40,418 nucleotides of DNA from an uncultured Planctomycetia bacterium (GCA_964343105.1 CAYFHV010000002.1:1-40418), one strand, 5' to 3'. Shown: positions 5,450 to 31,148, counted from the first letter of the stretch. Notes: generated by a model from the letters alone, not told the origin. A program made the numbers and translations.

Positions 5450-6487
5450 ATGAAAGCGGTCTTCTTCCAGCAGCACGGCGGCGCGGAGGTGCTCCAGTAC
5501 GGAGAGCTCCCCACCCCCAACATGAGCGGCGGGGAGGCGATGATCCGGGTGGAGGCCTGCGCCCTGAATCACCTCGACCTCTGGGTGCGCCAGGGGCTGC
5601 CGGGGGTCCAGATCCCGATGCCGCACGTCAGCGGGTCAGAGATCGTCGGCCTGGTGGTCGGCAAAGGGCCGGGCGTCCGGGGGATCCGGGTGGGCCAGCG
5701 CGTTCTGGTAGCCCCCGGGATGAGCTGCGGGCGCTGCACGAGGTGCCGGATCGGCCGGGAATCCCTCTGCCCGGAGTTCAGGATCATCGGCCTTCAGACC
5801 AACGGCGGCTACGCCGAATACGCCAGCGTGCCGGGCAAGAACTGCATCCCCGTCTCCGACCGTTGGAAGCCGGAGGAGTGGGCCGCCGTCCCGCTCGTTT
5901 TCCTCACCGCCTGGCACATGCTCGTCACCCGCGCGGAGCTGAGGCCCAGGGAAAGGGTCCTGATCCACGGAGCGGGCTCCGGCGTTGGATCGGCGGCGAT
6001 CCAGGTCGCGAAGCTGAAGGGAGCCACGGTCTTTGCCACCGCCGGCTCCGACGAGAAGCTCAAGAAGGCCCGGGCCCTCGGCGCGGACCAGGTGTGGAAT
6101 TACAGCAGGGTCGACTTCGCCCAGGAGGTATTGAAGGCGACGAAGGGCAAGGGGGTGCATCTCGTCTTTGAGCACATCGGCCCCGACACCTGGGCAGGTT
6201 CCATCCGCTGTCTGCAGAAGGGAGGCCGGCTGGTCACGTGCGGGGCGACCTCGGGGCCGAAGGTGGAGCTGGATCTTCGCTTCTTCTTCACCAAGGAGCT
6301 CAGCGTCCTGGGATCCTACATGGGAAGCCGCCGAGAGCTGGACGAGGTGCTCCGTTGGGTGAACCGCGGTCGGCTCAAGCCAGTGGTGAGTGCCACCTTT
6401 CCGCTCAAAGAGGCGGCGAAGGCGCAGCAGGTCATGGAAAGCCGGAACTTTTTCGGCAAGCTCGTCCTGAAGATGGAGGGATCGTGA
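5450..6487 (+). CDS. zinc-type alcohol dehydrogenase / quinone oxidoreductase family (MDR) protein
   Basis: 345 aa. Has the GSEIVG motif region, a structural-Zn cysteine cluster (CGRCTRCRIGRESLC) and the GAGSGVGSAAIQVAK NAD(P)-binding motif. Confidence 0.8.
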   Translation: MKAVFFQQHGGAEVLQYGELPTPNMSGGEAMIRVEACALNHLDLWVRQGLPGVQIPMPHVSGSEIVGLVVGKGPGVRGIRVGQRVLVAPGMSCGRCTRCRIGRESLCPEFRIIGLQTNGGYAEYASVPGKNCIPVSDRWKPEEWAAVPLVFLTAWHMLVTRAELRPRERVLIHGAGSGVGSAAIQVAKLKGATVFATAGSDEKLKKARALGADQVWNYSRVDFAQEVLKATKGKGVHLVFEHIGPDTWAGSIRCLQKGGRLVTCGATSGPKVELDLRFFFTKELSVLGSYMGSRRELDEVLRWVNRGRLKPVVSATFPLKEAAKAQQVMESRNFFGKLVLKMEGS

Positions 6488-7287
6488 CCGCTGCCATCCG
6501 GAACATCATCGCCGTGGCGAGCGGCAAGGGCGGGGTCGGCAAGACCACCGTCGCCGTGAACTTGGCCGTGGCGCTGGCGAGGGAGGGGGCCAAGGTCGGC
6601 CTCATGGACGCCGACATCACCGGCCCCAATGTGCCGATCATGATCGGCGCGAGGACCCTTCCTCCCCTCAGCGAGGGCCGGCTGGTCCCGGCGGAGGCGT
6701 TCGGTGTGAAGGTGATCTCCATGGCCTTCCTGGTCAAGGAGGGGGACGCGGTGATCTGGCGCGGCCCGATGCTCCACCACGCCATCAACAAGTTCCTGAA
6801 GGAGGTGGAGTGGGGGGAGCTGGATTATCTCATCGTGGATTTGCCCCCCGGGACTTCCGACGCGCAGATCTCCCTTTCCCAGGCGGTGGCGCTCACCGGA
6901 GCGCTGGTGGTTACGACCCCGCAGGAGGTTTCCCTGCTGGACGTCCGCAAGGCGATCGCCATGTTTGAGAAGGTCAAGGTGCCGATCCTCGGCATCGTGG
7001 AGAACATGGCCGCCTTCGTCTGCCCGCACTGCGGTAAGGAGACCGAGATCTTCTCGCGGGGAGGCGGAGCGCGGGCGGCCTCGGAGCTGAAGATCCCCTT
7101 CCTGGGCGAGATTCCTCTCCTTCCCGAGGTCCGGGCCGGGTCGGACTCGGGCAAGCCGATTGTCATCTCCCATCCGGAGTCTCCGGCGGCTAGGGCCCTT
7201 TCGGAAATCGCCCGCAAGCTGACGGCGGAGATCCAGACCAGGGCAGCTCAGGCGCCTGCACAGGGAAAGAGCGCTTGGAGCGTTTAA
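6484..7287 (+). CDS. apbC: Mrp/NBP35 (ApbC) family Fe-S cluster carrier ATPase
   Basis: IAVASGKGGVGKTTVAVNLA deviant Walker A, DLPPGTSD, and the CPHCGKETEIF CxxC motif. GTG 6484 overlaps the upstream stop (GTGA). The longer ORF from 6238 is an out-of-frame overlap with the ADH gene. Confidence 0.88.
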   Translation: MTAAIRNIIAVASGKGGVGKTTVAVNLAVALAREGAKVGLMDADITGPNVPIMIGARTLPPLSEGRLVPAEAFGVKVISMAFLVKEGDAVIWRGPMLHHAINKFLKEVEWGELDYLIVDLPPGTSDAQISLSQAVALTGALVVTTPQEVSLLDVRKAIAMFEKVKVPILGIVENMAAFVCPHCGKETEIFSRGGGARAASELKIPFLGEIPLLPEVRAGSDSGKPIVISHPESPAARALSEIARKLTAEIQTRAAQAPAQGKSAWSV

Positions 7288-9245: not shown

Positions 9246-10028
9246 GTGCGCCGCGTTTTTATTGACGTAGGGGGTCTCACCTGCCCAAAGAGGGGATCCA
9301 AGGAATTCATGGAAGCCCTGACCCGCTCCATTCGCAGAGCAGGGCTGGAAGGGCAGGTGGAGGTGATCGCCCGGGGCTGCTTCGGGCTGTGCAACATCGC
9401 CCCGAACCTGTACGTGGAGCCCGATGGTATCTGGTACTCCCGCTTCACGCTGAAGGACGTGCCGGTGATCGTCCGGCAGCATCTTCGCAACAACCGTCCC
9501 GTCTTGCGGCTGATTCACTATCCGGACCGGAGGCGGGTCAACAAGAGAGGAGAAACGCAGGTGGCTGAGACGCTGGTGGCTCGTGAGGTCGAGGTGGGGG
9601 ATGTGGCCCCCGATTTTACGCTGAAGGATGAGAACGGTAACCCGGTGGCGCTCTCCAGCTTCCGGGGCAAGAAGAGCGTGGTCCTGGCCTTCTACCCGTT
9701 TGACTGGAGCCCGGTCTGCACGAACGAGAACTGCGCCTTGACGCAGGATCTGGCCGAGTTTGAGGGGAAGGAGACGGTGGTCTTCGGCGTGAGCTGTGAT
9801 TCCTTCTTCTGCCACAAGGCGTGGAGGGAGAAGCTGGGGCTGAAGCAATCGCTCCTGTCGGATCAGCAGCGGGAGGTCTCCAAGAAGTACGGGCTGTTCC
9901 TGGAGGAGCTCAACTGCTCCAAGCGGGCTACGGTGGTGATCGACAGGCAGGGCAAGGTCACCTTCAAGAAGGTGCAGGAGATCAAGGTCGCCCGCAGCAA
10001 CCAGGAGATCCTGGCCGCCCTTCGGTGA
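9246..10028 (+). CDS. fusion protein: thioredoxin-like [2Fe-2S] ferredoxin (NuoE-like) domain + PrxQ/BCP-type peroxiredoxin
   Basis: The N-terminal ~95 aa ([14 protein letters not shown]...[21 protein letters not shown]) has the thioredoxin-like ferredoxin layout with 3 Cys. The C-terminal part ([29 protein letters not shown]) is AhpC/TSA with a Cys-X4-Cys pair. GTG start. Confidence 0.75.
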
Positions 10029-12454
10029 AACAAACAGCTCCAGCGTCCGAGGAGCAGGTCCTCGAGCAGGAGGTGCGCCGGCACATCCTGGTGACCACCT
10101 GGGACAAGCTGCTGGAGTTGGTGAATCCGATCTACAACTGGGGGCGGCGCAATTCGATCTGGCCACTCCAGTTTGGGCTGGCCTGCTGCGCCATTGAGAT
10201 GATCTGCACGGCGGCCAGCCGCTTCGACATCGCCCGCTTCGGTGCGGAGCTCTTCCGCGCCTCCCCCCGGCAGGCGGACCTCATGATCGTCTCCGGCACG
10301 GTCACGAAGAAGATGGTTCCGATGATCGTGCGGCTCTACAACCAGATGGCGGAGCCAAAGTACGTCATCTCCATGGGAGCCTGCGCCACCGCCGGCGGGC
10401 CGTTCAAGGAGGGGTACAACGTCGTCTCCGGCATTGATAAGTTCCTGCCGGTGGATGTCTACATACCGGGATGCCCGCCCACGCCTCAGGCGCTCCTCCA
10501 CGCGCTGATCACGCTGCAGAAGCAGATCGACAGCCAGGACGCCCGCAAGGTCCGCTGGTACCGGAAGGAGGAGGGCGCGGAGATCCCGGTCCCGGAGCTG
10601 GGGCCGGATCTCTTTGACGTTCGCCGGGCGGAGGAAATCAAGAAAATTTGCTCGGGGCCGGCGCCGACCGGACCGGCGGTTCTTCCGAAGTTCGTGCCGG
10701 CCTTTAAGGCCACGCCGACGGAGGTGGAAGGGGCAGATCCGAAGGCAACGGAGCTGGCCAGCCGCCTCAACCGCCTGACCAGTGAGGGCGCGGTGACTCC
10801 CTGCGGCAAGGCGCTCCTCGTGGATCCGCTGATTCTTCCCGACGTCGCCAGGGCCCTGAAGGACCAGCCGGATCTTTCCTTCGACTACCTGACGAATCTC
10901 ACCTGCGTGGATTTCGAGGACTGCTACGAGGTCGTGTATCACTTGGCCTCCACGCGGCGGCCGGGTGATCCACTGCTCGCGCTGAAGGTGCGCTCCGGCA
11001 AGGGGGCCCCCGAGGTGCCGACCGTGACGCCGATCTGGCCCGGGGCCGATTTCCAGGAGAGGGAGGTCTGGGATCTGTACGGCGTCCGCTTCAGAGGGCA
11101 CCCGAACCTCAAACGGATCCTCATGTGGGAGGGGTTCGAGGGGCATCCGATGCGGAAGGATTACCTGGAGGCGTACTACGAAGGACCGGGCAAGATTTTC
11201 CCGAGCCGGTGGAGGGAGGGGCATCACCAGCTGGCAGAGGAGCGGGTTCCCTTTGCTGACAACGTGACCTATCCAGCCGGCTTCGATCCCGCGGCCTGGA
11301 AGCCGGTCCCCGAACCGTGGCGCCCGATCACCTCCGAGGCGCTCAAGAGTCTGAAGACCGACACGCTCACCGTGAACCTGGGCCCGCAGCACCCCTCCAC
11401 GCACGGCGTCTTCCGGATGCGCGTTGTGGTGGAGGGGGAGCGGATCGTTGCCCTGGAGCCGGTGGTCGGCTACATGCACCGCAACCACGAGAAGATCGGG
11501 GAGCGGAACACTTACCTCATGAACTTCCCCTACACCGACCGGCTGGACTACATCTGCTCGATGGGGAACAACCTGGGCTACGCCGTCGCGGTCGAGAAGA
11601 TGATGGGGATCCGCCCGCCGGAGCGGGCGGAGTACATCCGGGTCATCATGGCGGAGCTCACCCGGATCGTGAACCATTTCTGGGCGATCGGGTTCCTCCT
11701 GAACGACCTGGGGGCCTTCTTCACGCCGGCCCTCTACGCCATCGAGGAGCGGGAGCTCATCCTGGATCTCTTCGAGATGGCCTCCGGCTCCCGGATGATG
11801 TGCAACTACATGCGCTTCGGTGGGGTGATGGCTGACCTGCCGGAGGAGTTCATGCCGGCTACCCGGGAGCTGGTGAGCAACCGGCTGGGGAGGGCGATCG
11901 AGCAGATCGACAGATACCTCACCCGCAACGAGATCCTCTTGAGCCGCTGCCGCGGGGTCGGCGTCCTGCCGCGGGACGCGGCGATCGCCTTCTCCGCGGC
12001 CGGGCCGGTCCTGCGCGGCTCGGGGGTGAAGTACGATGTTCGGCGGGCCGAGCCGTACTCGATCTACGACCGGTTTGACTTCGAGATCCCGACCTTCCCG
12101 GAGGGGGACGTCTACGCCCGATATCGGATGCGGATTGCTGAGATGTGGCAGAGTCTGAAGATCCTGAAGCAGGCGATCCAGGAGATCCCGGCAGGAGAGG
12201 TCCAGGCCGGCAAGAAGGCGTGGAACATCCGGGTGCCGGCGGGGGAGGGGTACGGCCGGGTGGAAAACCCGAAAGGAGAGCTGGGGTTCTACATTGTCTC
12301 GGACGGGACCGACCACCCGTACCGGTACCACATCCGGGCCCCTTCCTTTATCAACCTCACGGCGCTGGGGCTCATGTGCCAGGGGCATCTGGTAGCCGAC
12401 GTGGTGGCGATCCTCGGCTCGATCGACATCGTGCTGGGCGAAACCGACCGATGA
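10025..12454 (+). CDS. nuoBCD: NADH-quinone oxidoreductase subunits B, C and D fused in one polypeptide
   Basis: NuoB part: [26 protein letters not shown] (N2 cluster Cys). NuoC part: [26 protein letters not shown]. NuoD part: [13 protein letters not shown]...[12 protein letters not shown]...[17 protein letters not shown] 10025 overlaps the upstream stop (GTGA). The ORF-track start at 9821 lies inside the previous gene. Confidence 0.9.
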
Positions 12455-12473
12455 CCGCGACAGAGGTGGTGGG

Positions 12474-13109
12474 GTGAAGATCTACGGCCTCGAGCTGCTC
12501 CGGGGATTGGGCATCACGGTGGGGCATTTTTTAGCCAGCTACGCGGTGGGGCTTCGCCGGACATTCCGGAATCGGTTGCGCGGGGAGGTTCGGCAGCGAC
12601 CGGGAGAAGGGGGGATCTTCACGGTTCAGTATCCTGAGGAGCGCCTGAAGCTGCCGGAGCGTTTCCGGGTCCTGCCGGTCCTCATCTTCGAGGGCAAAGA
12701 GGGCGAGAAATGGAAGGAGGAGACAGAGCTCTGCACCGCCTGCGGGATCTGCGCCAAGGTCTGCCCGCCCCAGTGCATCTGGATCGTTCAGGCCAAGGAC
12801 GCCTCGGGCAAGCCGAAACCGAAGGCCTCGGACTTTTACATTGATGTGGATGTCTGCATGAACTGCGGACTGTGCGCCGAGTTCTGCCCCTTTGACGCGA
12901 TCAAGATGGACCACACCTTTGAGCTTGGATCGGAGGAGCGCCACACCTCCCACATCTTCGATATCGACCGCCTGCACGTCTCCACCGAATATTACGCGCG
13001 GACGCACCCGAAGGCCTGGGCGGAGGAGGAGGCGCGCCGGGCGGCGAAGGCCAAGAAGCCGGAGACGGCCGGAGCAGGTCAGGGTAAGCCGGAGGCAGGC
13101 AATGTATGA
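12474..13109 (+). CDS. nuoI: NADH-quinone oxidoreductase subunit I (2x[4Fe-4S])
   Basis: CTACGICAKVCP and CMNCGLCAEFCP ferredoxin motifs, with a YPEERLKLPERFR N-terminal region. GAGGTG lies 5 nt upstream of GTG 12474. Has a Lys/Ala-rich C-terminal tail. Confidence 0.88.
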   Translation: MKIYGLELLRGLGITVGHFLASYAVGLRRTFRNRLRGEVRQRPGEGGIFTVQYPEERLKLPERFRVLPVLIFEGKEGEKWKEETELCTACGICAKVCPPQCIWIVQAKDASGKPKPKASDFYIDVDVCMNCGLCAEFCPFDAIKMDHTFELGSEERHTSHIFDIDRLHVSTEYYARTHPKAWAEEEARRAAKAKKPETAGAGQGKPEAGNV

Positions 13110-13461
13110 GCTGAACTACCTGTTCCTCGGCATCTTTTTTCTCGCGGCGCTGGTGGTCCCGCTCCTGCCGATCGTGCTGGCCTGGTTCATCGCTCCGAAG
13201 AAGCCGGGCAGGGTCAAGGGGGAGCCGTACGAGTGCGGGACCGAGGGGGAAGGGGATTCCTGGGTCCAGTTCCGGATCCAGTACTACATCTTCGCGATCC
13301 TCTTCGTGATCTTTGACGTGGAGGCGCTCTTCCTCTTTCCCTGGGCCGTCATCTTCAAGGAGGCGGGCGTGGCTGGCCTGGCGGCCATCGGGGCATTTGT
13401 GGGGATTATCGCGCTTGGGCTCGTCTACGCGTGGCAGGTGGGAGGGTTGGAGTGGGACTAG
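13102..13461 (+). CDS. nuoA: NADH-quinone oxidoreductase subunit A
   Basis: 119 aa. EPYECG and ILFVIFDVEALFLFPWA motifs. GGAGG lies 6 nt upstream of ATG 13102. Overlaps the nuoI stop. Confidence 0.85.
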   Translation: MYELNYLFLGIFFLAALVVPLLPIVLAWFIAPKKPGRVKGEPYECGTEGEGDSWVQFRIQYYIFAILFVIFDVEALFLFPWAVIFKEAGVAGLAAIGAFVGIIALGLVYAWQVGGLEWD

Positions 13462-14555
13462 ATCTTCTGCGGCTCTTTCTGCCGGGGCTGGTGATCCTGG
13501 TGCTGGCACCGGTGGGGATGATGTACCTCACCTGGCTGGAGCGGAAGGTGGTGGCCCGGATCCAGGACCGGTTCGGGCCGAATCGGGTGGGGCCCTACGG
13601 GCTTCTCCAGCCGATCGCCGACGGGATCAAGATGCTCACCAAGGAGGACATCGTTCCCACCGGGGCGGACTGGGTCTGCCATTTCCTGGCCCCGGTCGTC
13701 ATCGTGGTGCCGTCCCTTTTCTTGTTTACCGTCCTGCCGGTGGGACCGGGCTGGGTGGCTGCGCCCCTGACCACCGGGCTTCTCTTCTTCATGGCGGTGG
13801 GATCCGCCACCACCCTGGCCATCTTCATGGCCGGCTGGGGCTCGCGGAACAAATTCTCTCTGCTGGGGGCGATCCGCAACGCCGCGCAGCTCATCGCCTA
13901 CGAGGTCCCTCTGGTCCTGGCGCTGGTCGTGGTTCCCATGGTGGTGGGGTCGTTGAGTCTGTTGGAGATCGTGGAGGCGCAGTCCGGCCGCTGGTTCATC
14001 CTGACGCCCTGGGGACTGGTGGGCTTCTTCCTTGTGATGACGGCCGGGTTGGCGGAGGTGAACCGGACTCCGTTCGACCTGCCGGAGGCGGAATCGGAGA
14101 TCGTGGCCGGCTTCCACACCGAATACAGCGGGATGAAGTTCGCCCTCTTCTACATGGCGGAGTTCCTGAGCACTCTGGCCACGGCCGGGCTCCTGGCGGC
14201 CCTGTTCCTTGCGGGCTGGAAAGGGCCGTCGGTTCCGCTCCTCCCGGCGGGGGTGGAGCCGATCTTCTGGATGGGGCTGAAGACCTTCCTCATGGTTTTC
14301 GTCATGATCTGGATCCGGGGCACGTTCCCGAGATTTCGGATCGATCAGCTCATGGGCCTTGCCTGGAAGGTGCTCATCCCGGTGGCGCTGGCCAACGTGG
14401 CGGGCGCGGCCTGCGAGCAGATGATCCCCGGTCTTTGGGGCGAGCTGATGGGCCTGGCGCTGCCGGTGGGCACGTTCCTCTGGACCAGCCAGCTGTGGCT
14501 GCGGCCCCAACCCCACTTGACTACGCGCTGGGTCTATGAAAAAGTAGAGGGGTAA
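13452..14555 (+). CDS. nuoH: NADH-quinone oxidoreductase subunit H
   Basis: LTWLERKVVARIQDRFGPNRVGPYGLLQPIADGIKM and NRTPFDLPEAESEIVAGFHTEYSGMKFALFYMAEF are NuoH/ND1 signatures. GGAGG at 13441-13445 lies 6 nt upstream of GTG 13452, with GTG 13431 as an alternative. Confidence 0.9.
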   Translation: MGLDLLRLFLPGLVILVLAPVGMMYLTWLERKVVARIQDRFGPNRVGPYGLLQPIADGIKMLTKEDIVPTGADWVCHFLAPVVIVVPSLFLFTVLPVGPGWVAAPLTTGLLFFMAVGSATTLAIFMAGWGSRNKFSLLGAIRNAAQLIAYEVPLVLALVVVPMVVGSLSLLEIVEAQSGRWFILTPWGLVGFFLVMTAGLAEVNRTPFDLPEAESEIVAGFHTEYSGMKFALFYMAEFLSTLATAGLLAALFLAGWKGPSVPLLPAGVEPIFWMGLKTFLMVFVMIWIRGTFPRFRIDQLMGLAWKVLIPVALANVAGAACEQMIPGLWGELMGLALPVGTFLWTSQLWLRPQPHLTTRWVYEKVEG

Positions 14556-14592: not shown

Positions 14593-14901
14593 TTGGGAAA
14601 ATTCGTTAGCGTAGCGACCGTCTCGGAGATTGCGCCGGGCGGGGCGAAGCAGGTGGAGGTGGAAGGGCACACGCTCGCCATCTACAACGTGGGCGGCACC
14701 TTCTACGCGATTGACAACACCTGCACTCACGTCGGCGGACCTCTGGCCGAGGGGACGGTGGAGGGGGAGGAGGTGGAGTGTCCCTGGCATGGGGCCCGGT
14801 TCGACGTCAAAACCGGCAAGGTCGTCAGCCCACCCGCGGGATCGGACGTCCAGTCGTACCCCGTTCGGGTGAACGGATCCAACGTCGAAGTAGAGATCTG
14901 A
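14593..14901 (+). CDS. Rieske [2Fe-2S] ferredoxin (small soluble type)
   Basis: 102 aa. CTHVGGPL and CPWHGARF give the complete CxH...CxxH Rieske ligand set. TTG start lies 5 nt after GGGAGG. Confidence 0.8.
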   Translation: MGKFVSVATVSEIAPGGAKQVEVEGHTLAIYNVGGTFYAIDNTCTHVGGPLAEGTVEGEEVECPWHGARFDVKTGKVVSPPAGSDVQSYPVRVNGSNVEVEI

Positions 14902-14934
14902 CTCGGAGCCAAGCTCAAGGAGGAGACCGATTCG

Positions 14935-15246
14935 ATGTCCTATGTCATCACGGCGAAGTGCCTAGGCGAGCAGTACGCCCAGTGCGTCGAGGTTTGTCCC
15001 GTGGACTGCATCTATCCCGGCGATCACAAGGGGGAGAAGTTCATGGTGATCGACCCGGAGATCTGCATCACCTGCGGGGCCTGCCTGCCGGTCTGTCCCG
15101 TCGGGGCGATCGTGGAGTCCGAGGACTTCGACCAGGAGTACGCCAAGGTCAACAAGGATCTCTCTCCTGCCTACAAGGGCAACGCGAAGGTTACGCCCCG
15201 AGCCAGCAACGACCCTCCGAAGAAGCCCGGCAACAAGCTGGTGTAA
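14935..15246 (+). CDS. 7Fe-type ([3Fe-4S][4Fe-4S]) ferredoxin
   Basis: YVITAKC...QCVEVCPVDCIY and CITCGACLPVCPVGAI match the Azotobacter FdxA-type cysteine spacing. AAGGAGGA SD upstream. Confidence 0.85.
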   Translation: MSYVITAKCLGEQYAQCVEVCPVDCIYPGDHKGEKFMVIDPEICITCGACLPVCPVGAIVESEDFDQEYAKVNKDLSPAYKGNAKVTPRASNDPPKKPGNKLV

Positions 15247-15300
15247 GGCCGGCTGCGCAGCCGGCACTGACCGCCCTGCGGGGCGGTGGAATCGCCCACG

Positions 15301-16899
15301 ATGACCCTTTCCGCTGAAGCGGCCAAGGACCGGATCGGCAATCCCTTCCTGATCCGCGAGAAGATCGAGGCCGCGGCCAGGGAAGGGTTCACCTCGCTCA
15401 CCGAAGACGACCAGTTCCTCGCCAAGTGGTACGGCCTCTACACCCACCGGCATGAGCCCGGATACTTCATGCTGCGGCTCAAGATCCCGGGAGGCCACCT
15501 GACAGCCGCGCAGCTGCGCACGGTCGCCCAGATCACGAGCGAGCGCAACCGGGACTTCGCAGACATCACCACCCGGCAGGACTTCCAGCTCCACTGGGTT
15601 AAGACTGAGGAGGCCCCGGAGACCCTGCAGATCCTCCAGTCGGCCGGGATCTCGACCCTGGGAGCGTGCGGGGATGTGATGCGCAACGTGGTGGGCTGCG
15701 CCGTGGCGGGCGTGGATGCGCAGGAGCTGTTCGACGCCACCCCGATCTTGAGACAGGTGAGCGACCACTTCCTCGGCAACCTGGAGTTTGCGAACCTTCC
15801 CCGGAAATACAAGATCTCGATCGCCGCCTGCCGGGAGCAGTGCCAGCAGCCGGAGGTTCAATGCGTGAGCTTCGTCGGCGTGCTGCGGCAGTCCGGAGGC
15901 GAGCCGCAGCCCGGGTTCGACCTGCGCGTCGGAGGGGGGCTCTCCACGAAATGGTACTTCGGCCAGCGGCTCAACGCCTTTGTCACCCCGGAGCAGGTGC
16001 TGCCCGCGATCCGGGCGATCACCGAGATCTACCGGGACAGCCCGGAGTACCGGAAGGCTCGGTCGCGGGCGCGGCTGAAGTACCTGATTGCGGACTGGGG
16101 GGTGGAGCGGTTCCGGCAGGCGCTGCAGGCGAAGCTGGATTTTCCACTCGAGGAGGCCGGGACGGTCGAGGATCCTCCCGACGCATACCGGGACCATGTG
16201 GGCGTCCATGAGCAGAAGCAGCCAGGCCTCTTCTACGTCGGGGTGCCGGTCCTCGTGGGGCGGATCTCCGGCGCGCAGATGCGCAAGGTCGCCGACCTGG
16301 CCGAGCGGCACGGGGATGGGACGATCCGGCTGACGGTGCGGCAGAACCTGCTCCTCCTCAACGTGTCGAAGGAGAAGGTGGTTTCCGTGCTGGAGGGTCT
16401 GGAGGCGGTGGGGCTGAGGGTGAGCGCTTCGCCGATTCATCGGGGAGTGGTGACCTGCACCGGTATCGAGTTCTGCAAGCTGGCGGTCACGGAGACCAAG
16501 GTCCGCGCGCGGGAGATCGTGGAGTATCTGGAGAGGAGGGTCACGCTGGAGGAGCCGCTGCGGATCCACATCACCGGTTGCCCCAACACCTGCGCCCAGT
16601 CGCCGATCGCCCACATCGGCCTGCAGGGATCGAAGGTCAAGGTGGGCGATCAGATGCTGGAGAGCTACGATGTCGCGGTCGGCGGACAGCTGGGCCGGGA
16701 CCGGGCGTTCAACCACTTCGTGCTCCGGAAGATCCCCGCGACGCAGGTGAAGTTCCGGCTGGAGCGGCTGCTGCTGGAGTATCGGCAGAAGAGAGCCGGC
16801 GGGGAATCGTTCAACGCATTCTGCAGCCGGATCGGGGACGCGGGGGTCGCTCAGTTGCTGGGTGAGGAAAAGCGCGAGGGTGACGGAGCGAGCGGCTAG
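15301..16899 (+). CDS. ferredoxin-dependent sulfite/nitrite reductase (siroheme-[4Fe-4S] hemoprotein)
   Basis: Two NIR_SIR-type repeats. Cluster/siroheme cysteines are TCTGIEFC ... GCPNTCAQ (C-X5-C...C-X3-C). ATG 15301 is preferred over GTG 15286. Confidence 0.85.
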   Translation: MTLSAEAAKDRIGNPFLIREKIEAAAREGFTSLTEDDQFLAKWYGLYTHRHEPGYFMLRLKIPGGHLTAAQLRTVAQITSERNRDFADITTRQDFQLHWVKTEEAPETLQILQSAGISTLGACGDVMRNVVGCAVAGVDAQELFDATPILRQVSDHFLGNLEFANLPRKYKISIAACREQCQQPEVQCVSFVGVLRQSGGEPQPGFDLRVGGGLSTKWYFGQRLNAFVTPEQVLPAIRAITEIYRDSPEYRKARSRARLKYLIADWGVERFRQALQAKLDFPLEEAGTVEDPPDAYRDHVGVHEQKQPGLFYVGVPVLVGRISGAQMRKVADLAERHGDGTIRLTVRQNLLLLNVSKEKVVSVLEGLEAVGLRVSASPIHRGVVTCTGIEFCKLAVTETKVRAREIVEYLERRVTLEEPLRIHITGCPNTCAQSPIAHIGLQGSKVKVGDQMLESYDVAVGGQLGRDRAFNHFVLRKIPATQVKFRLERLLLEYRQKRAGGESFNAFCSRIGDAGVAQLLGEEKREGDGASG

Positions 16900-16902
16900 G
16901 CG

Positions 16903-18027
16903 ATGCCGGACGTCGTGGTGATCGGGGCGGGGGTCGTGGGCCTGGCGGTTGGCGAGGAGCTGGCGCGGAGGGGCCTGGAGGTGGAGCTGTTCGAGCGCCA
17001 GCCGCAGGTGGCCCAAGAGGCCTCCGGGGCGGCGGCAGGGATTCTCGATCCTCAGGGTGCGGACGGTCCGGGCCCCATGCTGGAGCTGCTTCGGACCGGC
17101 TTTCCGCTGGTGGCGGAGATGATTCGCCGGCTGGAGTCCGCCAGCGGGCTGGATCTCGGTTATCGCGCGTGCGGGATGATGGGGATCGTCTTCACCGACG
17201 AGGACGCAGCCGATCTGGATCGTGAGCGCCGCTGGCAGGAGGAGGCGGGGCTGGTGGTGGAGCGGCTGGACCGGCGCCAGGTCACGGAGGCGGAGCCGGC
17301 GGTGAGCTCGAGGGTACGGGGCGGCGTCTGGTGGCCTCGTGTGTCCCAGGTGGATGTGACGCGAATGGGGGCGGCGTACCAGCGCCTGTTCGAACAGTCA
17401 GGCGGCGTTCTGAAGCTCGGGCTGGCAGTGGAGAGGTTCCTGGTGGAGCGGGATCAGGTGGTCGGGGTCGAGACGCGGCAGGGGCGGGTGCACGCCGGAT
17501 GGGTCGTCGACTGCGCGGGCCCGTGGGCTGCGCTCGATTCAACGCTGCCTTGGGAGATCCCCTCGATCCCGTGCCGCGGGCAGATCATCCAATTTTCCGT
17601 CCAGCAGCCGCTCCTGCGCAGCGTGGTCCGCTCCGCCCGGGCCTACCTGGTCCAGCGATTCCCGAGGCAGCTTCTGGCCGGGACCACGGTCGAATACGTC
17701 GGATTCGATCGGTCGGTCACCGAGGAGGGCCAGCGGGCGATCCGGGAGGGGGCGTGCGAGATCTGCCCGGGCCTTTCCTCCATCCCGGTGACGTCCGCCT
17801 GGGCTGGCCTGAGGCCGGACAGTCCGGACCACCTTCCCATACTGGGGCCCACCCCTCTCGACCGGTTGCTCGTTGCCTCGGGTCACTTCCGCAACGGCAT
17901 CCTGCTGGCACCGTTGACCGGCCGGCTCATTGCGGAGCTCATCACCCGCGGGGATTGCTCCATCGACCTGTCGCCATTCAAGTTAGCTCGGTTCGTGGCG
18001 AAGGCCGCGAGGGATGTTGTAAAATAG
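16903..18027 (+). CDS. thiO: FAD-dependent oxidoreductase, glycine oxidase (ThiO)-like
   Basis: VVVIGAGVVGLAVGEELARRG FAD motif and C-terminal SGHFRNGILLAPLTG, typical of ThiO/DAO. Starts 3 nt after the reductase stop. Confidence 0.6.
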   Translation: MPDVVVIGAGVVGLAVGEELARRGLEVELFERQPQVAQEASGAAAGILDPQGADGPGPMLELLRTGFPLVAEMIRRLESASGLDLGYRACGMMGIVFTDEDAADLDRERRWQEEAGLVVERLDRRQVTEAEPAVSSRVRGGVWWPRVSQVDVTRMGAAYQRLFEQSGGVLKLGLAVERFLVERDQVVGVETRQGRVHAGWVVDCAGPWAALDSTLPWEIPSIPCRGQIIQFSVQQPLLRSVVRSARAYLVQRFPRQLLAGTTVEYVGFDRSVTEEGQRAIREGACEICPGLSSIPVTSAWAGLRPDSPDHLPILGPTPLDRLLVASGHFRNGILLAPLTGRLIAELITRGDCSIDLSPFKLARFVAKAARDVVK

Positions 18028-25941: not shown

Positions 25942-26114
25942 GCGGGGGCCTGCCTTTTGTGCTTGGGCCTCTTTGTGGGACTCAAGCAGCGCCAGCCTGG
26001 CTGCGAACAGGTTGTGCTGATCAAGTGAGGGTATCGCCTATGAAGTGGCAGGCCAAATCCTGAGAGCCTCAACCACATTCTGGGGCAAATTTCTGGGGCT
26101 AGGTCGGAAAGTCA

Positions 26115-26786
26115 ATGTCATCTCATCCTGAGAAAGAAGGGATTGGAACCGCGCTCCATGCAATTGCGCATGGCCTTGTTCAGACGTGGAAAAAAGGACT
26201 TAGAGAAAAACAACTTGTTTCTTCCGAAATTACGGATATACAACTCGAATTCAACCTTATCTTCGCTGCACTTTGGATAGCGAGCGTCGCATATGAGATG
26301 ACCACTGAAGATAAAGCAACCTTTGAGCGAAACGCCAAGGCAATGTATGACGAATTTCTTAAGGCATTAAGACAAGCTGAATCAGAACAAATGGGGCGAA
26401 GCGGACCATCAACGTTTCCGAGCCTCGGCGATGTCTTACAAAACGAAGAAGAGATTTCCAGAATTTGTAAGGAAATTCAGGCGGACGTAGAACGCGGGAC
26501 GGGGAACCGCAAGAGCATCGATCAGACGCTCCAGACGGGTTTCTCTACGATATTAGAATATTTGTTTCCGATCAGAGGACCGCGCTATCAGAAAGCTTGG
26601 AAGGATGGTGCTGCCAAGCTTTACGGTCCGACGTTTGACGTGTCACTAGAGCTCTATCGGGACTTGACTGGGAATGATCCAAAGACTGTCGAAGCGCTCC
26701 CGGCAGTCCTCGGGCTGAACATAATGTTGGCAGCTTCTTTTCCAGCGATACAAAAGACCTTAGCCGAATTTGGATATCATCCATAG
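26115..26786 (+). CDS. hypothetical protein (223 aa, predicted all-helical, no recognisable motif)
   Basis: Longest ORF in an A/T-richer stretch, with no competing ORF. Flanked by R1 copies A and B. Weak SD. Confidence 0.5.
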   Translation: MSSHPEKEGIGTALHAIAHGLVQTWKKGLREKQLVSSEITDIQLEFNLIFAALWIASVAYEMTTEDKATFERNAKAMYDEFLKALRQAESEQMGRSGPSTFPSLGDVLQNEEEISRICKEIQADVERGTGNRKSIDQTLQTGFSTILEYLFPIRGPRYQKAWKDGAAKLYGPTFDVSLELYRDLTGNDPKTVEALPAVLGLNIMLAASFPAIQKTLAEFGYHP

Positions 26787-26788
26787 AT

Positions 26789-26823
26789 ATGAAAAAACTC
26801 TTCGTTCGAACGATGGGGTGGCC
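26789..26823 (+). repeat. R1 repeat, copy B (5' module only)
   Basis: atgaaaaaactcttcgttcgaacgatggggtggcc starts 3 nt after the preceding stop. Similarity to copy A ends right after ggtggcc. Confidence 0.8.
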
Positions 26824-27084
26824 GTACACGCCAGTTCTACAGGACTGCCCTACGGGAAGATTATTCGCCATTCGTGGAGTTTGCGCGCTGGCTGGCCCGA
26901 ACGGAACGTCTTACGAGAGAGATGGTTGAATCCAGAAAGTCACGGATTTACCCGGGCTGATGGGTGAGAACCGCCTCCTTGTCAGGTTGGGTATCTTTAG
27001 AGGTGCACCTAACAAAATTTGGCAAGGGCGAACGCCCCAGCCCTGCACATTCATTGGTTCGCGGGGGCATCCCTGAATGGTTTT

Positions 27085-27117
27085 ATGTTAGACATTATGT
27101 CTAACATATGTTATACT
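27085..27117 (+). promoter_or_regulatory. TA operon promoter with perfect palindromic operator
   Basis: ATGTTAGACAT-T-ATGTCTAACAT (27085-27107) is a perfect 11-bp inverted repeat. TTAGAC (27088-27093) is -35-like and TGtTATACT (27109-27117) is an extended -10. GGAGGTGG SD, then ATG 27137. Confidence 0.6.
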
Positions 27118-27136
27118 TTTCTGTGGAGGTGGAAAA

Positions 27137-27370
27137 ATGAAAGCAGTCAATATTCGTGAATTGACTCACCACTTCTCAAGTTATCTTAGAGTGGTGAAGC
27201 GGGGGGAGCGTATTGTAGTCATGGAAAGGAGTTCGCCGGTGGCGGACTTGGTTCCTCATAACGAGAATTTGACTTCACCCGGCTGGAAACGGCTAATTCA
27301 GAAAATCCGAGTAAAAGGAGATGAGGCACTTTCTGAAACAACAACCCGTTTGCGAGCCGAGGAGCAATGA
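27137..27370 (+). CDS. type II antitoxin, Phd/YefM (prevent-host-death) family
   Basis: 77 aa. MKAVNIRELTHHFSSYLRVVKRGERIVVMERSSPVADLVP is the canonical Phd/YefM N-terminal fold pattern. ATGA overlap with the toxin gene. Confidence 0.8.
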   Translation: MKAVNIRELTHHFSSYLRVVKRGERIVVMERSSPVADLVPHNENLTSPGWKRLIQKIRVKGDEALSETTTRLRAEEQ

Positions 27371-27780
27371 GGGCGTTCGTTGACACGTCCTCGCTCTTCA
27401 AAAAATACGTCGAGGAGGATGGCTCGAAGGAATTGGATTCGCTGCTTCGGGAAGTTTCAGAAATCGCCGTTTCACCTGTAACGTGGCTCGAGATGAGTGC
27501 GGTAATCGCCAGGAGGCTGCGCGAAAAAACTTTGACTTCGCAACAGGCTGCCTGGCTCAAATCAGAGGCGCATAAAGATTTTCAGAGTTTTCATCGAGTG
27601 ATTTGGAACGAAGCTCTAGAAAAAACAGCAGCAGATCTCGTTTATGAGCATCCGCTTTCGACGCTTGATGCGATTCAGTTGGCTTCAGGGCTTCTCTCGA
27701 AGGCCGATCTCTTTGTGACATCGGATCAGGGGCTATTTGAGGAAGCGAAGAAGAGCGTTCGCAAGGCCGTGTGCATATGA
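27367..27780 (+). CDS. vapC: type II toxin, PIN-domain ribonuclease VapC
   Basis: 137 aa. Acidic PIN residues lie in FVDTSSL, WLEMSAV, LDAIQLA and VTSDQ. Confidence 0.85.
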   Translation: MRAFVDTSSLFKKYVEEDGSKELDSLLREVSEIAVSPVTWLEMSAVIARRLREKTLTSQQAAWLKSEAHKDFQSFHRVIWNEALEKTAADLVYEHPLSTLDAIQLASGLLSKADLFVTSDQGLFEEAKKSVRKAVCI

Positions 27781-27971
27781 AAGAGGTCGATAGCTTGAGG
27801 GGTTTTGATAAGCATCTACACAAATTGCTGGGAGCGCATCCGGAAGCAGCTCTGGAACATGCCAAGCTGTTCGCGGAGCTTCCAATTTCGAGTCAACTCG
27901 CCATCATGCGCCGGCGACGGGAATTGTGTCAGCGCCAAAGCTCTTCGCAGCCATGTTCTCCTCGTTCCTGA
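27771..27971 (+). pseudogene. R2 repeat copy 1: truncated 5' portion of an HTH(XRE)-type antitoxin-like gene
   Basis: 27796-27913 aligns with 29520-29637 (97/118 identical, hand count). Encodes RGFDKHLHKLLGAHPEAALEHAKLFAELPISSQLAIMRR, then loses the frame before any HTH. Confidence 0.5.
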
Positions 27972-28071
27972 TGAGGAACTCAACCGCCTCACCACGGCGT
28001 AAGATGTGTCCCTAAATGAAGCGTCCCTACTATCCTCATGGGACCATTTAGCGTAGCGTTAAGAGGTCGAC

Positions 28072-28695
28072 ATGAAGAAGATTCTCGTTGAATGTATCGG
28101 CACGTTCTTCCTCGTTCTGGTCGTCGGGCTGACAGCCATTGCCCCCGGTGCCGGGGCGATGGCTCCGTTAGCGATTGGGGCCATCCTGATGGTCATGGTG
28201 TATGCCGGCGGCCACATCTCTGGAGGTCATTACAATCCGGCGGTGACGCTTGCCGTGTGGCTCCGGGGCAAGTGCGACGCGAAGGACGTCCCATTGTACA
28301 TGGGAGCGCAAGTGGTTGGAGCGGTTATCGCAGCGCTCCTGGTAGGGTTCTGTAAGCGCGGGAGCATTGTCACGGCCCTGCAGCCCGCCGCGTTGCCGGC
28401 GCTCCTGATTGAGTTTGTGTTTACGTTTGCCCTGGCGTACGTTGTCCTGAATGTGGCGACTGCTAAGGAGACGGCCGGCAACTCCTACTTCGGCTTGGCG
28501 ATTGGATTGACGGTCATGGCCGCCGCTTATGCAGGAGGGAACATTTCTGGCGGGGCGTTTAATCCGGCTGTTGCCATCGGCATTACCCTAATGGGACTCA
28601 GTACGGCTGGCAATCTTTGGGTCTTCCTGGTGGGCAACTTGGGCGGCGGGGCGCTCGCTGCGTTCATCTTCCGTCTGACGAATCCGAACGACTAG
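28072..28695 (+). CDS. aqpZ: aquaporin / MIP-family channel (short, 207 aa)
   Basis: Two NPA boxes (HISGGHYNPAVTLA and NISGGAFNPAVAIG) and six hydrophobic helices. Confidence 0.88.
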   Translation: MKKILVECIGTFFLVLVVGLTAIAPGAGAMAPLAIGAILMVMVYAGGHISGGHYNPAVTLAVWLRGKCDAKDVPLYMGAQVVGAVIAALLVGFCKRGSIVTALQPAALPALLIEFVFTFALAYVVLNVATAKETAGNSYFGLAIGLTVMAAAYAGGNISGGAFNPAVAIGITLMGLSTAGNLWVFLVGNLGGGALAAFIFRLTNPND

Positions 28696-28700
28696 CGGAC

Positions 28701-28724
28701 TTATCCTCATCTATGTGAGGATAA
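28701..28724 (+). terminator. perfect 9-bp stem hairpin after the aquaporin gene (no U-tract)
   Basis: TTATCCTCA-tctatg-TGAGGATAA begins 6 nt after the stop. It is followed by aaagc, not a T run. Confidence 0.3.
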
Positions 28725-28742
28725 AAGCAGTCATCATGTCCC

Positions 28743-28834
28743 ATGAGTAAAACCATTTTCGTCCACGCATACGGGTGGCCGATGGGAGCACTATAACACT
28801 ACTTTGGCGGGGTTCCTCCGCTACCTGAATCGGG
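28743..28834 (+). repeat. R1 repeat, copy C
   Basis: The core 28773-28834 is 58/62 identical to copy A. The 5' part is diverged at the nucleotide level but reads MSKTIFVHAYGWPMGAL-stop versus MKKLFVRTYGWPMGALL in copy A. Confidence 0.8.
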
Positions 28835-28894
28835 CTGGAACCACCGTGCGGTGATCCTCTGCGGTTTCGGGTGGGCCACGCGTTGGCCGCCAGA

Positions 28895-28903
28895 TGGTAT
28901 AAT
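28895..28903 (+). promoter_or_regulatory. extended -10 promoter element for the DUF433/DUF5615 pair
   Basis: TGgTATAAT at 28895-28903, about 25 nt upstream of ATG 28928, with AGGAAGGAGA SD in between. Confidence 0.4.
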
Positions 28904-28927
28904 TGGGACCAGGAAGGAGATAGGAAC

Positions 28928-29484: not shown

Positions 29485-29518
29485 GAAAGGAATCGGGTGA
29501 TCGGAGATCAACCGCTTC

Positions 29519-29924: not shown

Positions 29925-29938
29925 TCCTCTAGAGTTAG

Positions 29939-30595: not shown

Positions 30596-30697
30596 AATTC
30601 CTCTACGTAACGACTTTTGGATGACCGTATGTGCCACTTACTCGGGATAGTGTTGAAGCTGCTAAAGAAACTGAACGGGTTGGAGGATAATTAAGCC

Positions 30698-31117: not shown

Positions 31118-31148
31118 GAAGATGTACAGTGAGAGAGGGAGGGAAAGA

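What the first reader, a model, noticed from the sequence alone, without database searches (positions are those of the whole stretch)
10025..14555. Complex I reduced to a six-subunit core (NuoBCD fusion, NuoI, NuoA, NuoH), with no N-module or antiporter-like subunits nearby
What the sequence shows:
- The only complex I genes in 40 kb are a B-C-D fusion, I, A and H, in that non-canonical order. They are tightly packed (start/stop overlaps, SDs inside the preceding genes).
- nuoH is followed directly by a Rieske ferredoxin gene.
- The cluster is preceded by a peroxiredoxin fusion.
- No nuoE/F/G (NADH input) and no nuoJ/K/L/M/N (membrane arm and pumping modules) are present.

What the motifs imply:
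- The NuoD part carries the quinone-type [10 protein letters not shown] motif rather than NiFe-hydrogenase CxxC motifs.
- The NuoB part keeps the N2 cysteines.
- Together these point to a quinone-reactive Q-module with its NuoH/NuoA membrane foot.

Inference:
- Either the genome splits a canonical complex I over several loci, or this is a stand-alone, non-pumping or reverse-running ferredoxin/quinone module.
- In the second case it would be related to, but simpler than, Ech/Mbh/Fpo-type relatives, which always retain at least one antiporter-like subunit.
Basis: partly seen in the sequence, partly recalled or inferred. Interest (0 to 1): 0.75.

Follow-up and report, generated by a model that had tools for sequence, protein, structure and literature searches.

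The report
Split-off quinone module of complex I
The four tightly packed genes really do encode only the quinone-reducing head and membrane "heel" of respiratory complex I, but comparison with relatives suggests this is one piece of an enzyme whose proton-pumping genes lie elsewhere in the genome, not a new miniature enzyme.

Summary
Window 10025-14555 holds four translationally coupled genes: a NuoB-C-D fusion, NuoI, NuoA and NuoH. All cofactor and quinone-site motifs are intact. No NuoE/F/G/J/K/L/M/N homologue occurs in the 40 kb.

The same BCD-I-A-H unit recurs, with unrelated flanks, in at least four deep lineages (Omnitrophota-labelled MAGs, two unnamed lineages, Sericytochromatia). Related fused-BCD clusters end at other points:
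- Chloroflexota carry only B(C)D-I, usually followed by an Mrp/NUBPL gene.
- Planctomycetes carry BCD-I-x-A-H-J-K-N-y, with a single antiporter-like gene.

[quoted passage not shown] Published gene counts for Sericytochromatia MAGs show single nuoA/H/I together with nuoJ/K/L/M/N. The window's NuoH and NuoA keep 88 of 89 and 27 of 28 columns that are conserved in enzymes with a full membrane arm.

My reading is that this is the Q-module/NuoH/NuoA part of an EFG-less, probably ferredoxin-fed complex I, with J-N encoded elsewhere (about 0.65). A stand-alone pump-less enzyme is not excluded (about 0.18). I could not inspect any whole genome that carries the unit, so the decisive test remains undone.

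The parts
10025..12454 (+). nuoBCD: a single 809-aa fusion of NuoB (N2 cluster), NuoC and NuoD (quinone site)
   Evidence: Pfam Oxidored_q6 6e-28, Complex1_30kDa 5e-39, Complex1_49kDa 4e-91. The N2 cysteines and the QHPSTHG/DRLDY motifs are invariant in 14 homologues. The best PDB matches are complex I NuoCD/Nqo4/NDUFS2 at about 1e-100. The GTG start overlaps the upstream stop.
12474..13109 (+). nuoI: 211-aa 2x[4Fe-4S] subunit (N6a/N6b)
   Evidence: Pfam Fer4 families. NCBIfam TIGR01971 NuoI 9e-26. Two CxxCxxCxxxCP motifs in the translation. A GAGGTGG sequence precedes the GTG start.
13102..13461 (+). nuoA: 119 aa, three predicted transmembrane helices, YECG and FDVE motifs
   Evidence: Pfam Oxidored_q4 4e-34. 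The best PDB match is chloroplast NdhC, 1e-27. The gene is called with these bounds on identical contigs. It keeps 27 of 28 conserved columns.
13452..14555 (+). nuoH: 367 aa (an alternative GTG start lies at 13431)
   Evidence: Pfam NADHdh 1.5e-113. PDB matches are plant Nad1, cyanobacterial NdhA and E. coli NuoH at about 1e-71. All signature motifs are present. It keeps 88 of 89 conserved columns.
14593..14901 (+). Rieske-type [2Fe-2S] ferredoxin (neighbour; a link to the nuo genes is not shown)
   Evidence: Pfam Rieske 5e-23. NCBIfam HcaC/NirD-like. Absent from the syntenic relative L006.
14935..15246 (+). FdxA-type (7Fe) ferredoxin, 103 aa; a candidate electron donor (inferred)
   Evidence: NCBIfam FdxA 5e-24. 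It is 93% identical, and in the same position after nuoH, in L006/L007. A different 2x[4Fe-4S] ferredoxin follows nuoH in L099.
9246..10028 (+). [2Fe-2S]-ferredoxin-like N-domain fused to an AhpC/TSA peroxiredoxin; its stop overlaps the nuoBCD start
   Evidence: Pfam AhpC-TSA 6e-38. NCBIfam 2Fe-2S ferredoxin 3e-12 on residues 13-90. GTGA overlap. Present next to BCD only in close relatives.
6238..7287 (+). Mrp/ApbC (NUBPL-type) Fe-S cluster carrier; a probable assembly factor (the start codon is uncertain because the ORF overlaps the upstream ADH gene)
   Evidence: Pfam ParA/NUBPL 1.5e-102. NCBIfam ApbC 5e-90. The homologous gene lies immediately downstream of BCD-I in about 40 Chloroflexota loci and 1.1 kb upstream in L006.

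Best explanation
The locus encodes the electron-transfer and quinone-reduction part of an NuoEFG-less complex I. This part comprises NuoI (clusters N6a/N6b), the NuoB part (N2), the NuoC and NuoD parts, and the membrane 'heel' NuoH and NuoA.

The remaining membrane-arm genes (nuoJ, K, N and most likely L and one or two M) are encoded at another locus of the same genome.

Proposed mechanism:
- A low-potential donor, most likely a ferredoxin, delivers electrons to NuoI.
- Electrons pass N6a -> N6b -> N2 and reduce quinone at the His/Tyr site in the cavity formed by NuoD, NuoB and NuoH.
- The charge change is relayed through the conserved acidic residues of NuoH and NuoA (the E-channel) to NuoJ/K and the antiporter-like subunits, which pump protons. 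The enzyme could also run in reverse, from quinol to ferredoxin, driven by the proton-motive force.

What is shown: gene identities, intact cofactor and quinone motifs, tight operon structure, recurrence of the unit, and its kinship with split and longer clusters.

What is inferred: the existence of J-N elsewhere, ferredoxin as the donor, and the direction of operation.
For: 1. All four proteins are canonical complex I subunits with every signature motif.

2. Related fused-BCD clusters form a series with different break points along the physical order of the enzyme:
- B(C)D-I(-Mrp) in about 55 Chloroflexota loci.
- BCD-I-A-H in the window and nine further loci.
- BCD-I-x-A-H-J-K-N-y in four planctomycete-type lineages.

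3. [quoted passage not shown] 2018).

4. Sericytochromatia carry the BCD-I-A-H unit. Published counts for six Sericytochromatia MAGs give nuoA 0-1 and nuoH/I 1-2 (single-copy in the five GEM MAGs), nuoD 0 and nuoB/C mostly 0 (as expected if a fusion is not counted). All six have nuoJ and nuoK, and all but one have nuoL, M and N.

5. The window's NuoH keeps 88 of 89 columns, and its NuoA 27 of 28 columns, that are >=85% conserved in enzymes whose operon includes J-N. These include the FDVE motif of NuoA and the acidic motifs of NuoH.

6. Split nuo clusters are common across bacteria (PMC12361115).

7. For ferredoxin as donor:
- No N-module in the window.
- The best structural relatives of NuoA are photosynthetic NDH-1 subunits, and cyanobacterial NdhA is among the top NuoH matches. 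By established knowledge, NDH-1 is ferredoxin-dependent.
- Small ferredoxin genes directly follow nuoH in the window, in L006 and, as a different type, in L099.
Against: - No J/K/L/M/N gene was seen within 10 kb of any of the ten loci that carry the unit. These include one on a 3.03-Mb contig and others on contigs of 614, 342, 245, 189 and 179 kb.
- I could not inspect the rest of any of these genomes.
- Three attempts to find an antiporter-like gene on the same contigs, by matching contig lengths, found nothing, though they were saturated by unrelated lineages.
- The unit sits in unrelated neighbourhoods in distant lineages. That is what one expects of a self-sufficient, transferable module.
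- The planctomycete operon ends after a single NuoN-type gene in three deeply divergent lineages, which hints that real reduction of the membrane arm may occur in this group.
- The grouping of these cluster types has only 49% NJ bootstrap support.
- The Sericytochromatia MAGs in the published table were not shown to carry this exact arrangement.
Confidence: 0.65

Rival explanations
1. Stand-alone, pump-less enzyme. NuoBCD, NuoI, NuoA and NuoH alone form a membrane-anchored ferredoxin (or other low-potential donor):quinone oxidoreductase with no antiporter-like subunit. It feeds electrons into the quinone pool without conserving energy, or with at most the NuoH/NuoA part of the E-channel.
For: - The four-gene unit is conserved as such, with start/stop overlaps, in at least four deep lineages and in unrelated flanks. 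No J-N gene lies within 10 kb in any of ten loci.
- Ferredoxin genes directly follow nuoH in two or three lineages.
- Planctomycete relatives keep exactly one antiporter-like gene in a conserved nine-gene operon, so shortening of the arm may be a trend in this group.
- All proteins are under strong purifying selection: 66% mean column identity across phyla.
Against: - To my knowledge, no member of the complex I / group-4 hydrogenase superfamily is known without an antiporter-like subunit.
- NuoH and NuoA show no loss of the residues that serve coupling.
- The related B(C)D-I-only clusters cannot be stand-alone quinone reductases and are documented as split.
- Sericytochromatia MAG counts include J, K, L, M and N with single-copy A/H/I.
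- Without J/K, two of NuoA's three helices would lose their usual protein partners (inference from solved structures).
Confidence: 0.18
2. Alternative head for a shared arm. The genome also has a complete canonical complex I. BCD-I-A-H is a second, paralogous Q-module/heel that assembles onto the same J-K-L-M-N arm, giving a ferredoxin-fed isoform alongside the NADH-fed enzyme.
For: - In some Chloroflexota-type loci, the fused BCD-I pair lies directly upstream of a complete canonical nuoA-B-C-D-E-F-G... operon (L098; L015 and L032). So genomes with an extra Q-module beside a full set do exist.
- Paralogous complex I sets are common.
Against: - Sericytochromatia MAG counts show single copies of A, H and I.
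- Swapping NuoH/NuoA between arms would need co-adapted interfaces.
- No second set was seen near any locus that carries BCD-I-A-H.
- No biochemical precedent is known to me.
Confidence: 0.12
3. Decaying remnant of a lost complex I, with no function.
For: Only the absence of partner genes in the window.
Against: - The reading frames are intact and the genes are translationally coupled.
- All cofactor ligands are kept.
- Identity to relatives in other phyla is 56-81%.
Confidence: 0.02

Closest known systems
Chloroflexi-type '2M' complex I with separated nuoB-CD-I genes (Chadwick et al. 2018, as described in PMC7117926)
   Same: - No NuoEFG in the cluster.
- C-D (or B-C-D) fusion.
- nuoI directly follows the fusion.
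- The Q-module genes lie at a locus separate from the membrane-arm genes.
- The BCD sequences fall in the same loosely supported group.
- An Mrp/NUBPL gene is linked to the cluster.
   Different: - Here nuoA and nuoH travel with the Q-module, so the break point is after H rather than after I.
- B is always fused.
- Whether the missing arm has two NuoM subunits is unknown.
Cyanobacterial/chloroplast NDH-1 (ferredoxin:plastoquinone oxidoreductase)
   Same: - Eleven-subunit-type enzyme without an N-module.
- Genes scattered over several loci.
- Chloroplast and cyanobacterial NdhC are the best solved-structure relatives of the window's NuoA, and cyanobacterial NdhA is among the top matches of its NuoH.
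- The ferredoxin donor is inferred here and established there.
   Different: - NdhK/J/H are separate proteins there.
- The oxygenic-specific subunits (NdhL-S, V) have no counterpart here.
- The gene grouping differs (ndhCKJ and ndhAIGE there).
Planctomycete nine-gene operon BCD-I-x-A-H-J-K-N-y
   Same: - The same fused BCD (55-59% identity) and the same order BCD-I-...-A-H.
- The HEPN-like accessory protein is shared with some BCD-I-A-H lineages.
   Different: It carries nuoJ, nuoK, one NuoN-type antiporter-like gene and a second small accessory gene. The window has none of these.
Ech-type energy-converting [NiFe] hydrogenase (six subunits)
   Same: - A small number of subunits.
- Homologues of NuoB, D, I and H.
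- A ferredoxin partner.
   Different: - Ech has NiFe-binding cysteines and makes H2. The window's D domain has the quinone-type His/Tyr motifs and no CxxC pairs.
- Ech keeps an antiporter-like subunit (EchA) and lacks NuoA and NuoC.
- Sequence similarity to Mbh/MBS is far lower than to complex I.
Complex I with fused NuoBCD in Thermodesulfobacteriota (PMC12361115) / NCBIfam NF009808 'subunit B/C/D'
   Same: The B-C-D fusion architecture.
   Different: - Those are complete 14-subunit-type sets in one cluster.
- The window protein scores 678 bits against a cut-off of 1156, so it is not that equivalog.

Membership tests
Respiratory complex I (Nuo/NDH-1), Q-module and heel subunits | NuoB with the four N2-cluster cysteines (tandem CC, GAC, GCPP) | tested here: met
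   C54, C55, C120 and C150 are invariant in the 14-sequence alignment. Pfam Oxidored_q6.
Respiratory complex I (Nuo/NDH-1), Q-module and heel subunits | NuoD with quinone-site His (QHPxxHG) and Tyr (DRLDY), and without NiFe CxxC pairs | tested here: met
   GPQHPSTHG and TDRLDY are invariant. The C-terminus is DIVLGETDR, without cysteines. Mapping onto Nqo4 H38/Y87 is from my knowledge of the motifs, not from a structure.
Respiratory complex I (Nuo/NDH-1), Q-module and heel subunits | NuoI with two 4Fe-4S motifs; NuoH and NuoA of the canonical type | tested here: met
Respiratory complex I (Nuo/NDH-1), whole enzyme | NuoJ, NuoK and at least one (normally three) antiporter-like subunits L/M/N in the same genome | not testable with these tools
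   - Absent from the 40-kb window and from +/-10 kb of nine related loci.
- No whole genome could be read.
- Contig-length matching failed.
Respiratory complex I (Nuo/NDH-1), 14-subunit NADH-dependent form | N-module NuoE/F/G | tested here: not met
   - No homologue in the window at tblastn E<=0.01, nor next to any BCD-I-A-H locus.
- Presence elsewhere in the genome is untested.
EFG-less complex I with Q-module genes separated from the arm genes (Chloroflexi-type 2M, Chadwick 2018) | nuoB/CD/I at a locus apart from nuoL-M1-M2-N; C-D fusion | tested here: met
   The fusion is present, I is adjacent, and no arm genes are nearby. The description of the family is taken from PMC7117926.
EFG-less complex I with Q-module genes separated from the arm genes (Chloroflexi-type 2M, Chadwick 2018) | Second NuoM and lengthened NuoL | not testable with these tools
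   The arm genes of this genome were not found.
EFG-less complex I with Q-module genes separated from the arm genes (Chloroflexi-type 2M, Chadwick 2018) | Phylogenetic grouping of the D domain with the Chloroflexota B(C)D-I sequences | tested here: inconclusive
   The NJ trees group them, but bootstrap support is only 49/100.
[quoted passage not shown] | NiFe-ligating CxxC motifs in the large subunit, or closest sequence similarity to these families | tested here: not met
   No CxxC motifs. Mbh/MBS chains match at about 1e-57, against about 1e-100 for complex I NuoD.
NCBIfam NF009808 (NADH-quinone oxidoreductase subunit B/C/D, equivalog) | Score at or above the curated cut-off of 1156 bits | tested here: not met
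   678 bits.

The most novel reading that the evidence does not exclude
The BCD-I-A-H unit is the whole enzyme: a four-polypeptide, six-module complex I relative with no antiporter-like subunit. It would be the end point of a reduction series that runs from full-arm enzymes through the planctomycete single-NuoN operon. It would act as a ferredoxin:quinone oxidoreductase that either does not pump, or moves charge only through NuoH/NuoA.
Probability: 0.15. Interest if true: 0.9.

Novelty: new member of a known kind. Interest (0 to 1): 0.4.

Why it matters
If the favoured reading is right, this is routine bookkeeping. Genome annotators should not score such organisms as having a "partial" or "reduced" complex I. 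Note also that annotation pipelines can miss a fused BCD gene when they count nuoB, C and D separately.

There is still some value in the pattern:
- The gene clusters of this lineage break at the same seams as the assembly modules of the enzyme: Q-module, then H/A, then J/K/N, then L/M.
- An NUBPL-type Fe-S carrier is genetically linked to the Q-module in bacteria.

If the minority reading were right, a natural complex I head-and-heel without any antiporter-like subunit would be a unique tool. It would let one test whether quinone chemistry and the E-channel alone can move charge, which is a long-running question in the coupling mechanism.

Tried and rejected
1. Looking for J-N on the same contigs as the unit, by matching the 'longest contig' lengths listed by the protein searches.
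- Queries: the Isosphaeraceae NuoN, its 50%-identity representatives plus cluster look-ups, and an Omnitrophota NuoN.
- All top lists were filled by close relatives of the query and no length matched. These are uninformative negatives, not evidence of absence.

2. A metagenome scan with a Sericytochromatia-specific peptide, meant to link the unit to the MAGs in the published table. It confirmed only two loci.

3. Literature searches found no paper describing BCD-I-A-H or the planctomycete nine-gene operon. Terms used were a fused nuoBCD, K13380, partial clusters and Omnitrophota. The primary paper, Chadwick 2018, is not held, so I rely on how two other papers describe it.

4. I first labelled the Verrucomicrobiota/Omnitrophota full operons as fused BCD. 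ORF inspection showed separate A, B, C and D genes, and I corrected this.

5. An 'A-H fusion' on the 3-Mb contig is most likely a frameshift. The sister contig has separate genes.

6. Functional coupling of the nuo genes to the NirA/ThiO/Rieske genes, or to the peroxiredoxin: rejected as unsupported, because the synteny holds only among close relatives.

7. Kinship with Ech/Mbh/Fpo: rejected.

Full report
**1. What is in the window**

The window has about 66% G+C and housekeeping content. Pfam and NCBIfam scans of the plus-strand ORFs between 9.2 and 18 kb give the following:

| Coordinates | Product |
|---|---|
| 9246-10028 | [2Fe-2S]-ferredoxin-like domain fused to an AhpC/TSA peroxiredoxin |
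| 10025-12454 | 809-aa NuoB-NuoC-NuoD fusion |
| 12474-13109 | NuoI |
| 13102-13461 | NuoA |
| 13452-14555 | NuoH |
| 14593-14901 | Rieske ferredoxin |
| 14935-15246 | FdxA-type ferredoxin |
| 15286-16899 | NirA-family sirohaem reductase |
| 16903-18027 | ThiO-type glycine oxidase |

The nuoA and nuoH bounds are those called on three public contigs that carry the identical sequence.

The junctions are tight:
- The peroxiredoxin stop and the BCD start overlap (GTGA).
- nuoI and nuoA overlap (ATGTATGA).
- nuoA and nuoH overlap by 10 nt.
- A 19-nt spacer with GAGGTGG precedes nuoI.

The rest of the window encodes the following:
- DJ-1, glycerol kinase, a GlpD-like oxidase, an MFS transporter, an alcohol dehydrogenase, an Mrp/ApbC Fe-S carrier and an ABC-2 exporter.
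- LplA, pyruvate dehydrogenase E1/E2/E3, an epimerase and a CDF transporter.
- A low-GC island, then MiaB, MiaA, HflX, HrcA, GrpE, DnaK and DnaJ.

tblastn with NuoE, F, G, J, K and N queries taken from related loci finds nothing in the window at E<=0.01.

**2. The proteins are canonical complex I subunits**

- In an alignment of 14 homologues from several phyla, the tandem CC, the GAC and the GCPP cysteines of NuoB are invariant. So are the GPQHPSTHG and DRLDY motifs of NuoD. Mean column identity is 66%.
- The D domain matches solved NuoCD/Nqo4/NDUFS2 chains at about 1e-100. It matches the Mbh and MBS large subunits only at about 1e-57.
- NuoH matches plant Nad1, cyanobacterial NdhA and E. coli NuoH at about 1e-71.
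- The best matches of NuoA are chloroplast and cyanobacterial NdhC, at 1e-27.

This is complex I proper, not an Ech/Mbh/Fpo-like relative. A B/C/D fusion as such is already known. NCBIfam has an equivalog for it, which this protein does not reach (678 versus 1156 bits). A 2025 survey reports fused-BCD complete complexes in Thermodesulfobacteriota.

**3. The unit recurs**

A protein search returned more than 100 full-length BCD fusions at 56-81% identity. I read the gene neighbourhood (+/-10 kb) of a sample of them. BCD-I-A-H followed by unrelated genes occurs in:
- A 78%-identical relative (L006/L007). Here the whole neighbourhood is syntenic, including the ferredoxin, a shortened NirA, ThiO and PDH.
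- A 69% lineage on a 3.03-Mb contig and on a 342-kb contig (L004, L012). A small HEPN-like gene sits between I and A.
- A 67% lineage (L099). It has the same accessory gene and a 2x[4Fe-4S] ferredoxin 13 nt after nuoH.
- Four loci of a 60% lineage that cluster names assign to Sericytochromatia/Blackallbacteria (L010, L011, L093, L101).

Flanking genes differ completely between lineages. None of the ten loci has a J, K, L, M or N homologue within 10 kb.

**4. Related clusters break at other points**

A scan of one genome per species gave 80 further loci.

| Cluster type | Where found |
|---|---|
| B(C)D-I only; in about 40 of these loci an Mrp/ApbC (NUBPL-type) gene follows immediately | about 55 Chloroflexota loci |
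| BCD-I directly in front of a complete canonical nuoA-B-C-D-E-F-G... operon | three loci (L015, L032, L098) |
| Nine-gene operon BCD-I-x-A-H-J-K-N-y, with exactly one antiporter-like gene of NuoN type and two small accessory genes | Isosphaeraceae and three other planctomycete-type lineages, whose N proteins are only 43-46% identical to the Isosphaeraceae one |
| Eleven-subunit-type operons with unfused genes, A-B-C-D-I-H-J-K-L-M-(M)-N | Verrucomicrobiota, Acidobacteriota and typical Omnitrophota |

In neighbour-joining trees of the D domain, the fused types group together beside the unfused operons. Support is weak: 49/100 for the group. The BCD-I-A-H lineages do not form a clade of their own (5/100).

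**5. Evidence on the central question: are J-N elsewhere, or absent?**

*For 'elsewhere':*

(a) The Chloroflexota arrangement is described in the literature as a split enzyme. [quoted passage not shown] 2018).

(b) Grettenberger et al. 2021 counted nuo genes in six Sericytochromatia MAGs.
- nuoA was 0-1, and nuoH and nuoI were 1-2 (one each in the five GEM MAGs).
- nuoD was 0 and nuoB/C mostly 0. That is the expected result if a fusion is filtered out.
- All six have nuoJ and nuoK, and all but one have nuoL, M and N.
- All four Sericytochromatia loci I read carry the BCD-I-A-H unit, so in that lineage the arm genes most likely sit elsewhere.

(c) Of the columns that are >=85% conserved in enzymes whose operons include J-N, the window's NuoH keeps 88 of 89 and its NuoA 27 of 28. 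These include the FDVE motif and the acidic motifs of the TM5-6 region.

(d) Split nuo clusters are common in bacteria.

(e) The break points (after I, after H, after N) follow the physical order of the enzyme and the seams of its assembly modules. The assembly-module seams are from my own knowledge of the assembly literature. This pattern looks like fragmentation of one gene set.

*For 'absent':*
- The unit is conserved as a unit in unrelated contexts.
- A ferredoxin gene follows nuoH in two or three lineages.
- The planctomycete operon stops after one antiporter-like gene in three deep lineages.

*The direct test failed.* I could not read beyond 10 kb of any contig. The metagenome scan gave two loci only.

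**6. Most likely mechanism**

The locus supplies the chain N6a/N6b (NuoI) -> N2 (NuoB part) -> quinone, at the NuoD/NuoB/NuoH cavity. It also supplies the first segment of the E-channel (NuoH, NuoA).

There is no N-module in the cluster. The best solved-structure relatives of NuoA, and some of the top matches of NuoH, are subunits of ferredoxin-dependent photosynthetic NDH-1. The donor is therefore probably a ferredoxin, and the FdxA-type gene at 14935-15246 is a candidate. This step is inferred.

Proton pumping would need NuoJ/K and antiporter-like subunits from another locus. The Mrp/ApbC gene, linked to BCD-I in about 40 Chloroflexota loci and nearby here, is a plausible Fe-S insertion factor for the Q-module, by analogy with NUBPL/Ind1. 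This too is inferred.

**7. Rivals and verdict**

| Reading | Probability |
|---|---|
| Part of a split enzyme | about 0.65 |
| Stand-alone pump-less ferredoxin:quinone oxidoreductase | about 0.18 |
| Alternative head/heel sharing the arm of a second, complete complex I | about 0.12 |
| Remnant | about 0.02 |

The finding is real and well described. Its exciting reading is the less likely one. The gene arrangement is a further example of a known kind: an EFG-less complex I whose Q-module genes are detached from the arm genes. It differs by a different break point and a full B-C-D fusion. I found no paper that describes the BCD-I-A-H unit or the planctomycete nine-gene operon. The key primary paper was not available to me.

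Noticed in passing
L009 10001-18937; L095 3325-12149; L100 2540-12185; L014: Planctomycete-type lineages share a nine-gene operon, BCD-I-x(86-92 aa)-A-H-J-K-N-y(135-165 aa). It has exactly one antiporter-like gene, of NuoN type with a hydrophilic C-terminal tail. The operon is conserved although the N proteins are only 43-46% identical to the Isosphaeraceae one. Whether nuoL and nuoM exist elsewhere is unknown. If they do not, this would be a single-pump complex I.
   Followed up: partly
about 40 Chloroflexota loci among L016-L077 (e.g. L039 13122-14207); window 6238-7287; L006 7865-8947: An Mrp/ApbC (NUBPL/Ind1-type) Fe-S cluster carrier gene lies immediately downstream of B(C)D-I in Chloroflexota, and 1-2.7 kb upstream of BCD in the window and L006. 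This is a bacterial genetic link between the complex I Q-module and its eukaryotic-type assembly factor.
   Followed up: partly
L012 13230-13622; L099 13017-13418; L004 13350-13865; L009 18521-18937: A small HEPN-like protein (Pfam HEPN 1e-4 for one member; mutual E-values from 1e-12 to 2e-25) accompanies the fused-BCD clusters. Its position differs: between I and A in some lineages, after N in Planctomycetes. It is absent from the window and from Sericytochromatia loci.
   Followed up: partly
window 26000-31200: G+C falls from about 0.66 to 0.50-0.56. The stretch holds a PIN toxin gene, a DUF5615/PIN-like gene, an aquaporin (MIP) and three ORFs with no Pfam match. It is probably a foreign island. 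No tRNA gene is found in the window.
   Followed up: no
window 9246-10028: A peroxiredoxin (AhpC/TSA) carries an N-terminal thioredoxin-like [2Fe-2S]-ferredoxin-like domain with only three cysteines. Its stop codon overlaps the nuoBCD start. In the relative L006 the two domains are separate genes.
   Followed up: partly
L004 13056-13299; L010 and L011 nuoI 3' halves: NuoI carries long low-complexity Ala/Lys/Glu-rich C-terminal tails in several lineages. In L004 the tail is 4.3 copies of a 57-nt tandem repeat. The window's NuoI has only a short tail.
   Followed up: partly
L098 13430-22472: A canonical nuoA-G operon directly downstream of a fused BCD-I pair has ParE/RelB-type toxin-antitoxin genes and a DUF2442 gene inserted between nuoD, nuoE and nuoF.
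   Followed up: no
L100 6041-6574: A cytidine/deoxycytidylate deaminase gene is inserted between nuoI and the small accessory gene of the planctomycete-type operon.
   Followed up: no
window 14593-18027 versus L006 14848-17181: The NirA-family reductase is 537 aa in the window but only 296 aa in the 78%-identical relative, where only the ferredoxin-like half-domain is detected. The Rieske gene is also missing there, while the FdxA-type ferredoxin is 93% identical.
   Followed up: no
L004 13813-15294: An apparent NuoA-NuoH fusion and a lengthened accessory ORF on the 3.03-Mb contig are probably assembly frameshifts. The sister contig L012 has separate genes of normal length.
   Followed up: partly
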